From Yuukianura sp. NJ FZ-2021 (taxonomy: Eukaryota), in the NCBI GenBank assembly GCA_046563655.1, contig CM102286.1, positions 3,410,001-3,474,000 of the forward strand: a stretch of 64,000 nt of DNA, given 5' to 3'. The notes under the pieces are model-generated. The model did not search any database, had not been told where the DNA came from, and saw nothing but the letters and a program-made list of their open reading frames with translations. Positions 1 through 48,188 of the stretch are shown here, piece by piece (within the stretch, counting starts at the first letter, position 1; each line of letters begins with the position of its first letter). The position numbers were made by a program, and so were the translations under genes.

Positions 1-252
1 ATATACTTCTCATCTGATTAGAACAGAGAATGACAGCTACGGAGTGGTTTCAATATGTTTTGAACGAACTGAGTAATATCCTTAAAAAGTGAGAATTCTG
101 CAAGAATACCTTGAAAGAAAATACAGAAACTCTCCAGTTGCGTCGGATTTGAATACTTTACCTACTACCACCCAGTTTTGCCACCCGCAATCAATTTACA
201 TTACATATGAAAGATATGGGAGAAGGCCATTCACAGCAAAACTGTGTGTGTA
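1..252 (+). pseudogene. 3' end of a degenerate terpene synthase paralog of the 42855-44217 gene
   Basis: Reads ILLI*LEQRMTATEWFQYVLNEL, then after a frameshift ILQEYLERKYRNSPVASDL...ERYGRRPFTAKLCV. The intact paralog reads ILLIRTKRMSATRSFQYVLDEL...ILQRKLERKYRNSPLLSDL...ERYGRKPFTAKLYV. There is a TGA at 15-17 where the paralog has CGA. The 5' part lies outside the window. Confidence 0.85.
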
Positions 253-1889
253 TGATCTTAAAGCTATAGCGAGAAATTGTACTACATGTAATTCTCTAAT
301 TATTAACCCCAGAAGCAGTATTAAATTCAATTCGAATATACAATATATAACTACCTTTTACGGCAGTTCTATGCTGCATTTTAGTCTTCCAGTTGAAATA
401 TTCTGCAAAAATAGGTAACTGAACGGGTTGCCTTTTTCAGTCGCATGTCGTTCCTTAAGTTGGCTATGGTGTGATCTGAGTATAATAAAGGCAACAAATT
501 ATAACTCAAGTACTAGCACAAATTTATACATTCTAACTTGCTTTGAAAAACTTTATCTTAACTTAGACACGTTGATGTACAGATCGCATAGTGTAGAACG
601 TAATGGAGCATCTGTACTTTATGATATGTAACACTGTGGTGAGTTGGCGATGGCTTAATGTTTTAGCCCACTTATTAATTTCATGTCGCCCGCCAATTTC
701 TGAGCGCTGCCAACAAGAAAACAATAAATGGGCCATGGATTTACTTTTTCCGCAAAATTGTCGTTACAAAAGTTGACAGATGCCGAGCATTCCACAAGAA
801 ACTTGTTTTGTGTGTGGCCTACTTCCCAAACCTTGAAAATACAAATGTTTTATTTTCAGAAACAACTTCAAGGACTTCATACGGAGCGACAAAAATGTTA
901 CCATACCAATGTCAAATTCGAAGGGGAAAGCGCTCCCTTTCAACGTAAAGTTGGATGTATCAAATCCTTCTAGATTCTTGTAGTTGCAACGTCCGTTTTG
1001 TCTTATTTCTGAAGCGTTGGCAATTCAAATCTAAATTTTTGCTTTGGATGAACACTCAACTGAGATGTTGAGCCAAAACCTTTTGTGGTACGGTACTTAT
1101 AGGTGATCGACTATTCGGAAACCGCGGAACATGAGACCATTGCGAAACGAAGGTTTAAAGAGTGGTAAAGTTTGAAACGATCTTGAGCTACTTCTTTACG
1201 AGCGGCTTAAACTTGATTTCTCAAGTCTTCGTTGTTAGAGTAGACGTCCAAAACGTGCTTAAGAGTTTTTTAAGTCAAAATTTAAAACAAGAAGGTAAAA
1301 TAAATTCGAATTTAGTGCAAATAATGTACAATGTTCAAATGAAAATTGGCAACTTTTGAATTGGAGTATTAAGTTAATCGAACCGGGACACGGTTTATCC
1401 GGCATCGTTGGTTCCCATTTGGGAATTAGTGGTGAGGGAATTTGAGCCAGCGGTAAATGGAGGAGGGGGGGGGGGATTTTGCTAATTTTTGTCAATTATT
1501 CCTGTTTTCTCGACGTTTCTGTTGTTTTTCCTCTACACTTCATGCCAATACGTTCGAGTTAGTGTAAACATGTCGTATGGTTATGAAGACTCAGTTTACT
1601 AATGTTTGGCGCCAAAGTTAACTCCAATGTTGAACATTCTAGCTTTCTTGTTAACTGTTCTCGACAATTCGAATCAATCCTCATTTTAATAATTTTTATC
1701 TATCTCCCGATGCTTTGTGATACCTTACTGTGGCATGTTGGGAGTGAGGGACGTTAAAAAAATACAACCTGGTGCAAGTGGATTCTAGTTTGAGGAGTCG
1801 GGGGAGAGGCAGCGGAAGCCCCGTTCTCGGTTCCTTCTGGTTGGAGCTGAAGCTGATACACAGAATACATCCTTGCGAAGGTTAGGTGT

Positions 1890-2130
1890 GGTGGCCCCAG
1901 AGTGCCAATGCTGTTTTTCCCATTTTGTAATTCAAAAAGCATTTTCAATTGCATTTCATTTTAAAAAGCTTTTACAACTGTATTTCATTTCAAAAAGCAT
2001 TTTCAATTGCATTTCATTTCAAAAAGCATTTTTAATTGCATTTCATTTCAAAAAGCATTTTCAATTGCATTTCATTTCAAAAAGCATTTTCAATTGCATT
2101 TTATTTCAAAAAGCATTTTTGAAATGCAAA
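1890..2130 (+). repeat. 29-bp minisatellite (AAAAAGCATTTTCAATTGCATTTCATTTC)n with a unique flank; an inverted copy lies at ~39880-40145
   Basis: About 6 visible units. The flank GTGGCCCCAGAGTGCCAATGCTGTTTTT is reverse-complemented at ~40115-40142. Confidence 0.85.
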
Positions 2131-44583: not shown

Positions 44584-46083
44584 ATGCTTTCAAAGAAGGA
44601 ATTTGGCCACTACCAGGCGATTTTGAAATTCTTTTCAAAAACATACTTATGTGAATTTGGTTCCGAACACAATTTATTATGTCGAAACGAGTCAAAGGTC
44701 AAGAGGGTGTGGGACTACTTTCTTGTCGTAGCTTATTGCTTACAGTTGTGGCAACTGTTTTATGCAATACAGCAAACAATTGCCGTACAACATTATTTTT
44801 ATCTTATGTTTCAAGGTGGGACAATCTTGTATATTGTGGCAAGATTAGCCGTCAAGGCTACTTTTCACCTCTATCAAGGAGAGACGGTCCAACTATTCAA
44901 TATGGTTTTGCTCATGCAAAAGCAAGGTAGTGTAATCTATGTGTAATCAAAATTTAATAAACTATGCGAGCTGTTCTTACGAATAATGTTTTGGGTAACC
45001 TCCGTGAAAATATATTTTAATTTGCAGGAGTTTGCTACTTTGGAACAGAATTTTCTGCTGACACAAGTTTAACCAGTAGGGTTACGCTGTGCCTCAAGTA
45101 CATTTTGTATATTATCTACACTGCTCATTTCATTGTACAGTTTCTTATTAGAAATGAAGTATCGACTCTGTTCTTGGACATCAAGGAAGGACTTGGGTTG
45201 GGATACATCAGTAGCACTTTACTCTTTTTGACAGTACATGGTGTTTTACATATCGACTTGGCCCTACATATACATTTCTACATTTGTATCATCTACATGG
45301 TTCAACTTTGTCTTCACTTTTGGACTAAACTTTCTTGGTGAGACAAAACTAAAAAACTTTAAAATCATAATCAATCAGGAATGTCAAAAGTATTTAGCTC
45401 CATGCCGGTAATGTTACAAAAATATTTTTTCCTAAATATGTATTTATTTGCACATGTCTTTAATTTGAAGGAAATAAGCATTTTGGGGATTTAAAGAAAT
45501 ATTCAGAGTATACTCAATATTTCGGTGATTTTTAGCACATATTTTTGACTACCCTGATTATAACCTGTTAGAAAAAAAATGTGTTAAAAATATTCGTTTC
45601 AGCGTCACTTGGCCGATAGAAGGAAAGGATAGCGCTAACGTCGACAAAACGTTGAATGTTTACAATCAAGTCAGAATTATAAATGACCTGAGCAATACCG
45701 CGATTGGTAGGATTGGTGGATTGATTTGGAAGATTGAATCCATTTTGGGAGTGGGAATTGCGATATACGTTTTCATTCGTCTGAACGTCAGAATTAAAGA
45801 CATTGGGTTATTGATAACTCTGCTCACATTGCTTACAACGGGCATAGTTTTGTCATTTGTCCTCTGTTTGGTTATGGCCAAGCTGTACAAGGTTTCAACG
45901 GCCTTGAAATGGAACTTCTTACGGAATACTGCACTGTCTACCAACAACCTGAGTAGAAAACTTATATCGGGACTTCCCGTAGTTCGTTGTAGTTTCGGCG
46001 GTTTCTACTACGTAGAGGACAGAGCAAAACTAACCGTAGTTGACACAATCATTCAAATTGTTGTCTTTTTATTGTTGTCTTAA
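44584..46083 (+). CDS. Multi-pass chemoreceptor-like protein, copy 2, 377 aa
   Basis: Exons 44584-44926, 45028-45337, 45603-46083; TATATAAA at ~44542. Clear paralog of copy 1 (MLSKKEF vs MLSRQEF; CSFGGFYYVEDRAKLTVVDTIIQ). Confidence 0.72.
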
Positions 46084-46449
46084 CACAACTCACAGTTTGA
46101 AGTGATAAAAGTATATCCGAAATTAAAAACCTGCCGTAAACTTTTGTAGTAGAGTAGTGCAAAGCGTTAAGTGGAAAATTGTGATGAAATATTTGTTTCT
46201 AACGTAAACAGTGAGCGCGACCTAGCATTTGTCAGTTTAGTGGAGAAGGTGGCCTTTGTGTCTAACAATTTTCATTTAACACCCAATTGTGCAAATGTGC
46301 AAATAAAAATTCATGCCGTAGACTCTTACTTCTCCTTTTAACGTCACAAAGCTGTGTTTTCTCTGTTTTCAAAGAAATTCATTTTCGGTTATATTTATTT
46401 TGGCAAGTGTGGAAATGAATTGTATTTAGGAAAATATTTATACGTAATT

Positions 46450-48188
46450 TTATTTCGAGGCGTAGTTGTTATTAGTAAGACAACAGACCTGAGGATATCG
46501 AATTACGATCGGCATTCTTTTTTTGGTACAGTTGATTGATTCTTGGTTCTCTTCACGAATTTTCTTGTCATTTTCTCGGTTTTTCCGCATTTGTGAGTAT
46601 GTTTCAATATAAAAATTTGTAAACAGTGCAATTAATGTCACACAGTACACAATTACGTACAAGTTGAATACATGTGGAAATTCGCAGTTTGATTTGGTCA
46701 TGCCTCCAATTAAATGTACAATGATCATTGCGAACTGGACCTGAAAAGTGGGTTAGTAAACTTAAGTAAATTTGAACCAAAAACAAATACTGAAAAGGGA
46801 TTACGAAGACAAACAAGAAAAGTTAATTTTTCATTTCTGTTTTAGATTTTAAAATTTACCAATTGTAGTTGGGTGATGTAGCGCTTCCACCAAAGGTACT
46901 TCTGAATAGCCGGACCAAAGGCGGAGAGGAAGTAATAGCCATACATTACAACGTGTACGAAGGAATTAATCATACATTGGAAGAAAACTAAAAATTGAAA
47001 GAGAAATTTTAAGAAAAAAAAATTTATGTTAAGTTGCATTTTTTTAGCTTCTTTCTTGCCTTGTCCACCTCCTGCGTACTTTGCAGCCAAGTACCAGTTC
47101 AAGATCATCGAACTGTGATGGTACACATGTAGAAAAGATACTTGAGAATTTTTTTTTCGTAAAATGAAGAACAGCGTGTCAAATAAATCAATTATTTTGG
47201 AGAAGAAAAACCACCAGCAAGCTGCAGCCATCTAAACACAAAATTATTGAAATTAGTATAAGGGCTATTATGAATAATTGCTCTAAAACTTAATTGCTCT
47301 GAAAAGGTTACCCGAATCCCAGTTTCGGAATTACTGTAATCCACAGCTTGACACCGAAGACTGTATCCAGCATGATATGCAGTAAGAAGAAACTGAAATA
47401 TATCAAAGATGATAATTTCTAGACAATTAGTATAGTTACTAGTAGTGAAATAACAGGCTTGTATTGAAATAAATTTACTTCTTTAAACATATACGCCGAA
47501 ATAATAACTTGGACGAGATTATAGAGTTTGAGTATTGAGCGTAAAGTGAACGGTTTCCGATTTTCCATAAACTTTGGTCCCACCAACACAATTGCCAAGT
47601 AACTGGAAATTATTATGACTATTGGCGTCCATCTTCTCATCAAAAACCAATCCAGGACACGGGCATCTAAACAAAAAAAATGCACATTAGGCCTGCATTC
47701 CTCAATTCTTGTGAATGTATAAATTTTCACAGTTTGCGTTAAAACAAAATGAATTCACAGATTTATGTCTATTACGGAAAATACGGAACGAAAACTAAGA
47801 AAAAAAAAAGATGATTGAAACTCTTTTGGCAAAGAAATGCCACGAAAAACTTGTTTTGTCTGAGACACTCTGACCCTCTTTTCTTTCAGTAACAAAAATT
47901 TCTGCATGCAAAACACACACAAAAAATGAAACAATTTTTTCAGAACAAGTTTTTCTTTGAGACTTTTGAACTATTGCCCTACAAACTAGAACTTTCCAAA
48001 GTTTGACTTTCTTTCGAAAAAAAATGCTATAATTTAAACCCACATTTTCAAGCTTTTGTCTCAAATTTGTTAATTTTTTTTGTCGAAATTTTTAGTATAC
48101 CTGGTTCAAAATCATGGATTGTCGTGGACAACCCCTTAACCACCACTAAAACGTACAGGACAAAAATGGCCAGCGGCGTTTTCATCAT
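46450..48188 (-). CDS. ELOVL: Very-long-chain fatty acid elongase (ELO/GNS1/SUR4 family), 6 exons, ~315 aa
   Basis: Exons 48188-48101, 47666-47479, 47392-47312, 47231-47060, 46987-46860, 46740-46450. Motifs [26 protein letters not shown] and [14 protein letters not shown]. Intron 4 is GC-AG. Confidence 0.93.

What the first reader, a model, noticed from the sequence alone, without database searches (positions are those of the whole stretch)
1..48188. Candidate animal terpenoid biosynthesis-plus-perception gene cluster (TPS x2 + pseudo-TPS, CYP, receptor-like x2, ELOVL)
Seen: within 48 kb, the only intact genes I could model are two microbial-type terpene synthases, one P450, two chemoreceptor-like genes and one elongase. 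Known: a TPS plus a P450 is the minimal core of terpenoid clusters in plants and microbes, and such clusters are rare in animals. Inference: this may be a linked signal-and-receptor locus, where the TPS makes a scaffold, the CYP oxidises it and the adjacent receptors detect the product (pheromone or defence compound).
Basis: partly seen in the sequence, partly recalled or inferred. Interest (0 to 1): 0.88.

Follow-up and report, generated by a model that had tools for sequence, protein, structure and literature searches.

The report
Animal terpene synthase gene neighbourhood
An invertebrate (probably arthropod) genome region really does hold two intact microbial-type terpene synthase genes, a P450, two taste-receptor-like genes and a fatty-acid elongase. 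Nothing yet shows that they work together as a signal-making and signal-sensing unit.

Summary
Positions 1-48188 contain two intact, intron-bearing class I terpene synthases: TPS-A (32460-34088) and TPS-B (42855-44217). There is also a decayed TPS copy at the window start, one intact P450 of CYP2-clan type (20231-22244), and two intact paralogous ~380-aa multi-pass membrane genes (24330-26695 minus strand; 44583-46083 plus strand). An ELOVL elongase lies at 46450-~48188 on the minus strand.

These are fragments of the receptor-like gene, a 9-kb satellite built from one of its exons, a copied ELOVL exon, and a two-exon fragment of a nicotinic-receptor-like channel.

The TPSs have every catalytic motif, and the modelled TPS-A exon 2 has the class I fold. 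They share only ~30% identity and belong to a rare clade: 48 hits among 1.84 billion proteins. The membrane genes match no Pfam family. A gustatory-receptor (7tm_7) affinity rests only on language-model features.

No genome, RNA data or relatives' synteny could be obtained. The "biosynthesis plus perception" reading is therefore untested.

My best reading is an interleaved birth-and-death array of two locally duplicating families, with a P450 and an elongase nearby. Canonical TPSs in arthropods and TPS-P450 clusters in corals are already published. Interest is moderate.

The parts
1..252 (+). Decayed 3' end of a TPS-B-like terpene synthase gene (pseudogene, cut by the window edge)
   Evidence: 48% aa identity to the TPS-B C-terminus. 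73.8% DNA identity between 14-252 and 43969-44216. In-frame stop and frameshift.
3269..3492 (+). Relic of receptor-like exon 1, about 3 kb downstream of the TPS relic on the same strand
   Evidence: tblastn of receptor-B exon 1: 44% and 67% identity in two pieces, E 2e-4.
4277..4514 (-). Relic of receptor-like exon 2
   Evidence: 70% DNA identity to 45129-45341; tblastn match.
5688..15013 (-). Macrosatellite: about 1.8-kb units, about 5 copies, 95-99% alike. Each unit holds about 6 copies of a 145-bp unit derived from the 3' end of receptor-like exon 2, including its splice donor.
   Evidence: TRF period 145, 5.8 copies per block. Self-blastn shows units 97.7-99.3% alike (the last one 95.4%), and the 145-bp unit up to 85% identical to 45204-45347.
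15872..16190 (-). Solitary relic of receptor-like exon 2 with part of the preceding intron
   Evidence: 74.8% DNA identity to 44985-45309; 57% aa identity.
20231..22244 (+). Intact cytochrome P450, 7 exons (20231-20378, 20464-20599, 20663-21052, 21113-21360, 21429-21470, 21565-21724, 21782-22244), 528 aa, CYP2-clan-like
   Evidence: PF00067 E 4.8e-43 and 8.1e-17 and 1.1e-9. Introns of 57-94 nt with GT-AG ends. N-terminal anchor, AGGET I-helix, ExxR, PERF and an FSAGKRRCPG haem loop are present. The model aligns over nearly its whole length (residues 50-526) to database P450s at 31.5% identity at most on full-length alignments.
24330..26695 (-). Receptor-like gene A, 3 exons (26695-26353, 26173-25864, 24822-24330), 381 aa, about 7 hydrophobic segments
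   Evidence: Model and hydropathy. 43-59% identity per exon to gene B. No Pfam family even at E<=10. Atlas named-only search: best 0.92 with 182 of 256 features shared, to an arthropod cluster in which 16% of members carry 7tm_7.
32460..34088 (+). TPS-A, intact class I terpene synthase, 2 exons (32460-32886, 33319-34088), 398 aa
   Evidence: PF19086 E 4.5e-17. DDTMD at 143, Arg 250 lying 46 residues before NDILSYTKE at 296, RY at 381. Exon 2 model pLDDT 88.6. Foldseek best match BcBOT2 sesquiterpene synthase, TM 0.78-0.81, E 1.9e-7.
37805..38746 (+). Two-exon fragment of a Cys-loop (nicotinic-receptor-like) channel: loop C with vicinal Cys plus TM1 (37805-38053), and TM2 (38585-38746). No other exons found.
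   Evidence: PF02931 E 4e-6. PF02932 E 1.8e-11; it was the only one of 81 ORFs with a hit below E 0.01.
42855..44217 (+). TPS-B, intact class I terpene synthase, 2 exons (42855-43353, 43448-44217), 422 aa
   Evidence: PF19086 E 1.8e-7. DDIFD at 167, NDMFSVQKE at 322, RY at 410. Intron at the same site as in TPS-A and in the 54%-identical relative on L001.
44286..44469 (-). Copied fragment of the ELOVL exon, lying in the 366-bp gap between TPS-B and receptor-like B
   Evidence: 80.6% DNA identity to 47409-47586; 70% aa identity over 56 residues.
44583..46083 (+). Receptor-like gene B, 3 exons (44583-44926, 45028-45337, 45603-46083), 377 aa. A TATAAA-like box lies about 35 nt before its ATG.
   Evidence: Model; sequence. 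Atlas best 0.97 with 219 of 256 features shared, to unnamed arthropod clusters; nearest named family is 7tm_7 at 0.87. No hit among 776 longer candidates.
46450..48188 (-). ELOVL fatty-acid elongase, at least 4 coding pieces. The first exon is not settled.
   Evidence: PF01151 E 9.9e-35, 2e-14 and 3.7e-7. HVYHH and [12 protein letters not shown] boxes seen in translation.

Best explanation
This is a gene-family birth-and-death region of an invertebrate, probably arthropod, genome.

Two locally duplicating families are interleaved here. One is a rare clade of microbial-type class I terpene synthases. The other is a divergent ~380-aa seven-pass membrane family that is probably related to arthropod gustatory receptors. 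One lineage-specific CYP2-clan P450 and one ELOVL elongase lie among them.

TPS-A and TPS-B are functional cytosolic cyclases. They ionise a prenyl diphosphate on a Mg2+ cluster held by DDxxD and the NSE triad, and release terpene hydrocarbons or alcohols. Farnesyl diphosphate is the best guess for substrate, but only because the closest structures are sesquiterpene synthases.

What is shown: the genes are intact and carry the catalytic motifs, TPS-A exon 2 has the class I fold, and the region has a history of local duplication.

What is inferred: enzyme activity, the substrate, and the view that the neighbours are together through duplication and chance rather than as a co-adapted pathway. 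The P450 may or may not act on the terpene.
For: TPS identity and intactness:
- Pfam above cut-off.
- DDxxD, the sensor Arg 46 residues before the NSE triad, and the RY pair.
- Exon 2 model with pLDDT 88.6, matching fungal and bacterial class I synthases (PDB sequence hits).

These are host genes, not contamination:
- GT-AG introns at the same site in TPS-A, TPS-B and a 54%-identical gene on an independent metagenome contig of 37.5% GC.
- Even GC across the window.
- Animal genes lie on both sides.

The TPS paralogs are old. They share ~30% identity. In the quick tree each groups with its own relatives, at SH-aLRT 96 and 97.

Birth-and-death dynamics:
- TPS relic, three receptor-like exon relics, an exon-derived satellite, a copied ELOVL exon and a channel-gene fragment.
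- A TPS relic followed on the same strand by a receptor exon-1 relic mirrors the TPS-B to receptor-B order.

Multi-copy hint: in run X1, 7 contigs lie on TPS-B at 43276 and 9 on receptor-B at 44575. TPS-A is covered by one 3645-bp contig with 0 differences. The tool warns that depth is not copy number.
Against: - TPS-A and TPS-B have stayed within 9 kb of each other despite deep divergence. The P450 is lineage-specific, lies on the same strand, and is 10 kb from TPS-A. This is what a conserved metabolic cluster would also look like.
- TPS-B and receptor-B are only 366 bp apart.
- I could not measure how many CYP, TPS or receptor-like genes the genome has, so 'chance' is an argument, not a result.
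- No expression data of any kind were available.
Confidence: 0.55

Rival explanations
1. This is a true terpenoid metabolic gene cluster of the octocoral type. TPS-A and/or TPS-B make a scaffold that the neighbouring P450 oxidises. The genes are kept together by selection and are co-expressed. The receptor-like genes are bystanders.
For: - Two anciently diverged TPSs and a P450 lie within 24 kb on one strand.
- The P450 has no close relative among the 28 proteins retrieved: 31.5% at most on full-length alignments and 35% on shorter ones. This is typical of specialised-metabolism P450s.
- Its nearest named hits include enzymes labelled 'methyl farnesoate epoxidase-like', 40% identical on the last exon.
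- Animal TPS-P450 clusters exist in octocorals (passages read in PMC11784711 and PMC12685057).
Against: - About 10 kb of repeats and a receptor-like gene separate the CYP from TPS-A, and about 20 kb separate it from TPS-B.
- There is no prenyltransferase, reductase or transferase gene in the block.
- There is no shared promoter arrangement.
- Conservation and co-expression are untested.
- Arthropod CYP families are large, so one CYP near one of several TPS loci is not rare. This is inference; no genome was available to count them.
Confidence: 0.27
2. This is a linked signal-and-receptor locus. The TPS (plus CYP) makes a pheromone or defence terpenoid, and the adjacent 7TM chemoreceptors detect it. 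Linkage keeps emitter and receiver alleles together.
For: - TPS-B and receptor-B are 366 bp apart on one strand.
- A decayed copy of the same order lies at the window start.
- Receptor-A sits between the CYP and TPS-A.
- The 7TM genes resemble arthropod 7tm_7 clusters by language-model features: 0.92 with 182 of 256 features shared, and 13 of the 30 hits in that 7tm_7-bearing set.
Against: - Receptor identity is unproven. There is no Pfam hit at E<=10, no PDB sequence hit, hhalign gives E 0.14, and the fold model is unusable at pLDDT 49.8.
- Receptor-B has its own TATA-like box.
- Repetition of the pairing is explained by block duplication.
- Both families look multi-copy.
- No ligand, expression or population data exist.
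Confidence: 0.05
3. The 7TM genes are not chemoreceptors at all, but another lineage-specific membrane protein family. This would remove the 'perception' half whatever the TPS and CYP do.
For: - No family assignment by any alignment-based method.
- The Atlas 'recognition' values of 1993 and 2047 are below the 2300 reached by most proteins of known families.
Against: - About 7 hydrophobic segments in ~380 aa, with the last one at the very C-terminus.
- Atlas hits concentrate on arthropod clusters in which some members carry 7tm_7 or Trehalose_recp. All 10 of the ten best named hits share that clan.
- The family shows large, tandem, fast-decaying behaviour, typical of chemoreceptors.
Confidence: 0.25
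4. Assembly artefact or microbial contamination puts microbial TPS genes next to animal genes.
For: The TPS family is otherwise microbial. Named relatives are Pseudomonas, Streptomyces and Pyricularia.
Against: - Spliceosomal introns in both TPSs, at a site shared with an independent contig.
- A 3645-bp contig of a public run covers TPS-A and its flanks with 0 differences.
- Uniform 33-40% GC.
- A decayed TPS copy and animal-gene relics are interleaved.
Confidence: 0.02

Closest known systems
Canonical (microbial-type) terpene synthases of arthropods: springtails, acariform mites and sciarid fungus gnats (PMC11665903, PMC13638087, PMC6275457)
   Same: Class I, single alpha-domain, Pfam Terpene_syn_C_2 enzymes encoded in an animal nuclear genome. 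They carry introns, occur in multi-copy families of very low mutual identity, and have distant microbial relatives. One of only 4 organism-named relatives among the 30 hits looked up is a Folsomia candida protein.
   Different: Only 28% identity to that springtail protein. The quick tree does not place the window's TPSs inside it. The closest relatives, at 38% and 54%, are unnamed metagenome fragments. The organism is not identified. Term searches of the two arthropod papers found no TPS-P450 or TPS-receptor neighbourhood ('P450' occurs 0 times in PMC13638087; in PMC11665903 it occurs only in another context).
Octocoral terpene biosynthetic gene clusters: terpene cyclase plus cytochrome P450 and other tailoring genes
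   Same: An animal genome with a class I terpene cyclase and a P450 physically close to each other.
   Different: In corals the P450s lie next to the cyclase and their function has been shown (passages in PMC11784711). The clusters are described as conserved (passage in PMC12685057). Here none of that is tested. The TPSs are not of the coral lineage: no solved coral enzyme is among the 23 PDB sequence hits or the listed Foldseek matches, which are all fungal or bacterial enzymes. A chemoreceptor-like gene and repeats lie between the CYP and the TPS.
Arthropod gustatory receptor family (Pfam 7tm_7 / Trehalose_recp)
   Same: About 380 aa, about 7 membrane segments, last helix at the C-terminus, tandemly duplicating with many pseudogene fragments. 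A C-terminal T-x6-Q spacing and a GGFY box resemble recalled GR motifs. The nearest named Atlas clusters carry 7tm_7.
   Different: No alignment-based match to 7tm_7 or to solved receptors.
CYP2-clan P450s of arthropods (CYP15 methyl farnesoate epoxidase, CYP305, CYP18) and deuterostome CYP1/CYP17
   Same: The best named hits carry these labels. The haem-loop and I-helix motifs are of that type; the clan assignment by motif is recalled, not tested.
   Different: 31.5% identity at most on full-length alignments and 35% at most on shorter ones. This is below the 40% usually used for one CYP family (a recalled rule), so no orthology to CYP15 or any named family can be claimed.

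Membership tests
Class I terpene synthase (Pfam PF19086 Terpene_syn_C_2) | Profile match above the curated cut-off | tested here: met
   62.9 bits (TPS-A) and 31.6 bits (TPS-B) against a cut-off of 23.7.
Class I terpene synthase (Pfam PF19086 Terpene_syn_C_2) | Metal-binding DDxxD and NSE/DTE motifs, pyrophosphate-sensor Arg, C-terminal RY pair | tested here: met
   DDTMD, NDILSYTKE, R250 (46 residues before N296) and RY in TPS-A. DDIFD, NDMFSVQKE and RY in TPS-B. N, S, R, E and RY columns are invariant or nearly so in 32 aligned sequences. 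The 46-residue rule is recalled.
Class I terpene synthase (Pfam PF19086 Terpene_syn_C_2) | All-alpha class I terpenoid synthase fold | tested here: met
   Tested on TPS-A exon 2 only (266 aa, lacking the N-terminal ~140 aa). pLDDT 88.6. 136 PDB matches with E<=0.001, and all those listed are class I synthases. Best TM 0.78-0.81.
Class I terpene synthase (Pfam PF19086 Terpene_syn_C_2) | Cyclase activity on GPP, FPP or GGPP | not testable with these tools
   Needs expression and GC-MS.
Cytochrome P450 (PF00067) | Profile match, haem-binding Cys loop, ExxR, PERF, I-helix AGxxT | tested here: met
   148 bits. Motifs present in the 528-aa spliced model. The model aligns over nearly its whole length to database P450s.
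ELOVL / GNS1-SUR4 elongase (PF01151) | Profile match and HxxHH histidine box | tested here: met
   120.7 bits. HVYHH seen. The first exon is not settled.
Arthropod gustatory receptor (Pfam 7tm_7, PF08395) | Profile or sequence match to the family | tested here: not met
   None of 6 exon pieces hit any 7TM family at E<=10. PDB profile search gave only chance ABC-transporter hits at E 2.7. hhalign to a firefly GR tail gave E 0.14. Only single exons could be submitted, which lowers sensitivity.
Arthropod gustatory receptor (Pfam 7tm_7, PF08395) | Seven membrane helices with the last at the C-terminus; OR/GR fold | tested here: inconclusive
   Hydropathy gives about 7 segments, the last ending the protein. 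The AlphaFold model of exon 3 has pLDDT 49.8 and was not searched. Atlas features point to clusters that partly carry 7tm_7, at 0.92 and 0.87.
Metabolic (biosynthetic) gene cluster | Non-homologous enzymes of one pathway physically linked | tested here: inconclusive
   Linkage is met: TPS x2 and the CYP lie within 24 kb. 'One pathway' is unknown.
Metabolic (biosynthetic) gene cluster | Co-expression and conservation of the linkage in relatives | not testable with these tools
   No RNA holder listed, no genome held, and the only related contig is 1652 bp.
Cys-loop ligand-gated channel (PF02931/PF02932) | Complete ligand-binding and four-helix membrane domains | tested here: not met
   Only loop C/TM1 and TM2 exons were found. 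80 other + strand ORFs in 34.1-42.8 kb gave no hit below E 0.01. It is a fragment.

The most novel reading that the evidence does not exclude
A physically coupled emitter-receiver locus in an arthropod-like animal. A horizontally acquired terpene synthase and a gustatory-type receptor, 366 bp apart, have been duplicated together. They would make and sense the same terpenoid, with the nearby P450 tailoring it. Signal and preference would then be inherited as one block.
Probability: 0.05. Interest if true: 0.88.

Novelty: new member of a known kind. Interest (0 to 1): 0.4.

Why it matters
If the TPS-P450 pair proved to be one pathway, this would extend animal terpenoid gene clusters beyond corals to an arthropod-like lineage. 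It would also give a direct route to the animal's terpenoid chemistry.

If the receptor link were real, it would be a molecular example of genetic coupling between signal production and perception, a long-standing question in the evolution of communication.

As it stands, the solid gains are smaller. The locus holds two intact members of a very sparsely sampled TPS clade, which has orthologues in at least one other unidentified eukaryote. It also shows how chemoreceptor-like genes and acquired enzymes duplicate and decay side by side.

Tried and rejected
Searches that led nowhere:
- Expression: no RNA holder was listed for 42800-47800. The four runs laid were all DNA contigs, so nothing can be said about transcription.
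- Whole-genome census of TPS, CYP and receptor genes: no genome is held.
- Synteny in relatives: two alignments were too diverse for the metagenome scan. A two-sequence alignment found one locus, the 1652-bp contig L001. It confirms gene structure but has only 157 bp downstream. Run X3 ('organism B') has a 454-bp contig with 3 differences over TPS-A. It is therefore the same or a very close species, not a useful relative.
- Word-indexed homologue searches found nothing for TPS-A exon 2 (545 candidates) or for receptor-B exon 3 against longer proteins (776 candidates).
- Receptor fold: the exon 3 model was too poor (pLDDT 49.8), so I ran no fold search on it.
- phmmer of the spliced receptor models against the one GR-containing protein in hand found nothing.
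- Rfam and tRNA scans of the window were empty.
- Earlier-findings look-ups gave nothing for this genome or these sequences. One search returned only bacterial and archaeal terpene-synthase notes, which do not bear on this locus.

Organism identity:
- The CYP hits spread over crinoid, insects, millipede, hemichordate, fish and annelid at 27-44%.
- 'Arthropod' therefore rests mainly on the Atlas cluster labels and the Folsomia TPS hit.

Readings rejected:
- Octocoral or sponge origin. The listed PDB and Foldseek matches are all fungal or bacterial enzymes, with no coral enzyme among them. The bilaterian-type nicotinic-receptor fragment and the GR-like genes fit an arthropod better. This is inference.
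- Recent tandem duplication of TPS-A and TPS-B: they share only ~30% identity.

The paper by Grayson (2025), cited in PMC12685057, is not held.

Full report
WHAT THE WINDOW IS. The 64-kb window has 33-40% GC throughout. It carries intron-bearing animal genes, no tRNA and no Rfam match. No whole genome is held for it, and there are no earlier notes on it.

CHECK OF THE OBSERVATION. I scanned 17 stop-to-stop ORF pieces against Pfam.
- Terpene_syn_C_2 hit 33288-34088 (E 4.5e-17) and 43426-44217 (E 1.8e-7).
- p450 hit two of three CYP pieces. A fourth piece was found.
- ELO hit all three elongase pieces.
- Nothing hit the six receptor-like pieces, even at E<=10.

I then built spliced models by script, testing all GT-AG pairs that keep the frame and scoring them against database relatives or the paralogue.
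- CYP: seven exons, 528 aa, 20231-22244, introns of 57-94 nt. It has a membrane anchor, an AGGET I-helix, ExxR, PERF and a Cys haem loop.
- TPS-A: two exons, 398 aa, 32460-34088.
- TPS-B: two exons, 422 aa, 42855-44217.
- Receptor-like A: 381 aa, 24330-26695, minus strand. Receptor-like B: 377 aa, 44583-46083. Each has three exons, with introns at the same places.
- ELOVL: HxxHH and MYxYY boxes are present, 46450 to about 48188, minus strand.

Its 5' part lies outside the window.

tblastn of the exon pieces against the window and self-blastn show a region of intense local duplication and decay.
- Relics of the receptor-like gene lie at 3269-3492 (exon 1), 4277-4514 and 15872-16190 (exon 2).
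- A macrosatellite spans 5688-15013. Its units are about 1.8 kb, 95-99% alike. Each holds about six copies of a 145-bp unit that is up to 85% identical to the 3' end of receptor-B exon 2, splice donor included.
- A copy of an ELOVL exon (80.6%) lies in the 366-bp gap between TPS-B and receptor-B.
- Two exons of a nicotinic-receptor-like Cys-loop channel lie at 37805-38053 and 38585-38746 (Pfam E 4e-6 and 1.8e-11). No further exons were found among the 80 other + strand ORFs scanned there, so it is a fragment.
- Beyond the finding lie two copine genes (86% alike), a GDSL hydrolase and an intron-bearing fungalysin M36 peptidase.

THE TERPENE SYNTHASES.
- Both carry DDxxD, an NSE triad, a conserved Arg 46 residues before it, and the C-terminal RY pair.
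- An AlphaFold model of TPS-A exon 2, built on a 32-sequence alignment, has pLDDT 88.6. It superposes on fungal and bacterial class I synthases. BcBOT2 gives TM 0.78-0.81, and 136 PDB matches have E<=0.001. PDB sequence hits agree.
- The family is very sparsely populated. A full HMMER pass over 1.84 billion representative proteins gave only 48 hits at E<=0.001, 6 at 1e-10 and 2 at 1e-30.
- I looked up 30 of the 48 hits. Only four carry an organism name: Folsomia candida (springtail, 28% identity), Pseudomonas kitaguniensis, Pyricularia oryzae and Streptomyces spectabilis. The closest hits are unnamed metagenome fragments.
- TPS-A and TPS-B are only about 30% identical.
- I built a quick maximum-likelihood tree of 50 rows: the 48 hits plus the two spliced TPSs. 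Cluster members P0049-P0053 were left out, and the careful search did not finish. TPS-A groups with P0001 and P0002 (SH-aLRT 96). TPS-B groups with P0003 and P0004 (97). The two groups join with P0012 (93). Folsomia and Pseudomonas sit in an unresolved neighbouring group.
- The contig of P0003 (L001, 1652 bp, 37.5% GC) encodes both exons, with the intron at the same site as in TPS-A and TPS-B.

These are therefore established eukaryotic genes with orthologues elsewhere, not contaminants. The A/B split is old.

THE P450. The last exon finds 28 proteins at E<=1e-10 among 359 candidates, at 27-44% identity. The labels are CYP1, CYP17, CYP305a1 and 'methyl farnesoate epoxidase-like'. The spliced protein aligns over nearly its whole length, but at no more than 31.5% on full-length alignments and 35% on shorter ones. 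It is a lineage-specific CYP2-clan-type enzyme. No orthology to CYP15 can be claimed.

THE RECEPTOR-LIKE GENES.
- They are 43-59% identical to each other per exon. They have about seven hydrophobic segments, with the last at the very C-terminus.
- Alignment-based methods give nothing. This covers Pfam, 776 longer candidates, a PDB profile search, hhalign against the GR tail of a firefly protein (E 0.14, though it did pick a shared GGFY box) and phmmer.
- The exon 3 fold model was unusable at pLDDT 49.8.
- The ESM Atlas places exon 3 of gene B next to unnamed arthropod clusters (0.97, 219 of 256 features shared), with 7tm_7 as the nearest named family at 0.87.
- For gene A, the best named cluster scores 0.92 with 182 features shared, and 16% of its members carry 7tm_7. 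Thirteen of the 30 hits fall in that set, and all ten best named hits share the clan. The tool notes that a third of shuffled proteins also reach 'all ten'.

I rate a gustatory-receptor relationship as likely, about 0.7, but it is a lead and not a membership.

IS IT A FUNCTIONAL CLUSTER? No RNA run holds the stretch, so expression is unknown. Four DNA runs laid on 28201-48200 show the following in run X1.
- TPS-A is covered by a single 3645-bp contig with no differences, at depth 32.9.
- Several distinct contigs at 80% likeness or more lie on TPS-B (7 at position 43276) and on receptor-B (9 at position 44575).
- Summed depths are 183-420 on TPS-B and about 560-1340 on receptor-B.

The tool warns that this is not a copy number. 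I take it only as a hint that TPS-B-like and receptor-like sequences are multi-copy.

The order 'TPS then receptor on the same strand' occurs twice: intact at 42.9-46.1 kb and decayed at 0-3.5 kb. Block duplication explains this most simply. Receptor-B has its own TATA-like box about 35 nt before its ATG, and a possible poly(A) signal follows TPS-B, so they are separate units.

The CYP is 10 kb from TPS-A. A receptor-like gene and high-copy repeats lie in between (depth table). No prenyltransferase or other tailoring gene is present.

In favour of a true cluster: two anciently diverged TPSs have stayed within 9 kb of each other, and a lineage-specific P450 lies on the same strand within 24 kb.

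COMPARISON WITH WHAT IS KNOWN.
- Canonical TPS genes are published for springtails, acariform mites and sciarid gnats. I saw the abstract and passages found by term search in PMC11665903, passages in PMC13638087 and passages in PMC6275457.
- In those term searches 'P450' occurs 0 times in PMC13638087. In PMC11665903 it occurs only in an unrelated context. I did not read the papers whole or their supplements, which may list genomic neighbours.
- The Folsomia genome paper reports two antiSMASH 'terpene' clusters without detail (section 8 read whole).
- TPS-P450 clusters are established in octocorals (passages in PMC11784711 and PMC12685057).
- A full-text search for terpene synthase, gustatory receptor, gene cluster, pheromone and linkage listed no paper on a TPS-chemoreceptor locus. 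I read the listing only.

VERDICT.
- The interpretation can be neither supported nor refuted with the data in reach. The dynamics of the region make coincidence through local duplication the most economical reading (0.55).
- A TPS-P450 metabolic cluster is a serious rival (0.27). The emitter-receiver coupling is a long shot (0.05).
- The TPSs are new members of a known kind.

Noticed in passing
window 5688-15013 (minus strand): A young macrosatellite: about 1.8-kb units, 95-99% alike, about 5 copies. Its inner 145-bp repeat derives from the 3' end and splice donor of the receptor-like gene's second exon (up to 85% identity to 45204-45347). It is a coding exon turned into satellite DNA. The region also has a strong AT skew of 0.17-0.19.
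   Followed up: partly
window 37805-38053 and 38585-38746 (+): A two-exon fragment of a nicotinic-acetylcholine-receptor-like channel (loop C with paired cysteines, TM1, TM2), stranded in repeat-rich DNA between the two terpene synthases. No other exons were found.
   Followed up: partly
window 58866-61288 (+): A multi-exon fungalysin-type M36 metallopeptidase with an FTP propeptide, lying in an animal genome region. From recall, this family is mostly fungal and bacterial, so it may be another acquired gene.
   Followed up: no
window 51212-53438 and 61501-63614 (minus strand): Two copine genes (C2 domains plus copine domain), 86% identical in DNA. They bracket a GDSL hydrolase (56549-57265) and the M36 peptidase.
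   Followed up: no
window 44286-44469 (minus strand): A copy of an ELOVL exon (80.6% to 47409-47586) sits in the 366-bp gap between TPS-B and the receptor-like gene B.
   Followed up: partly
window 1886-2119 and 39898-40146: Inverted copies (88-94%) of an element carrying a 29-bp tandem repeat. The surrounding stretches reach very high summed depth in the public runs, so this is a high-copy repeat or transposon.
   Followed up: no
L001 1-1652: A metagenome contig of 37.5% GC carries a 54%-identical orthologue of TPS-B with the same short intron just before the DDxxD motif. At least one other unidentified eukaryote therefore has this TPS lineage.
   Followed up: partly
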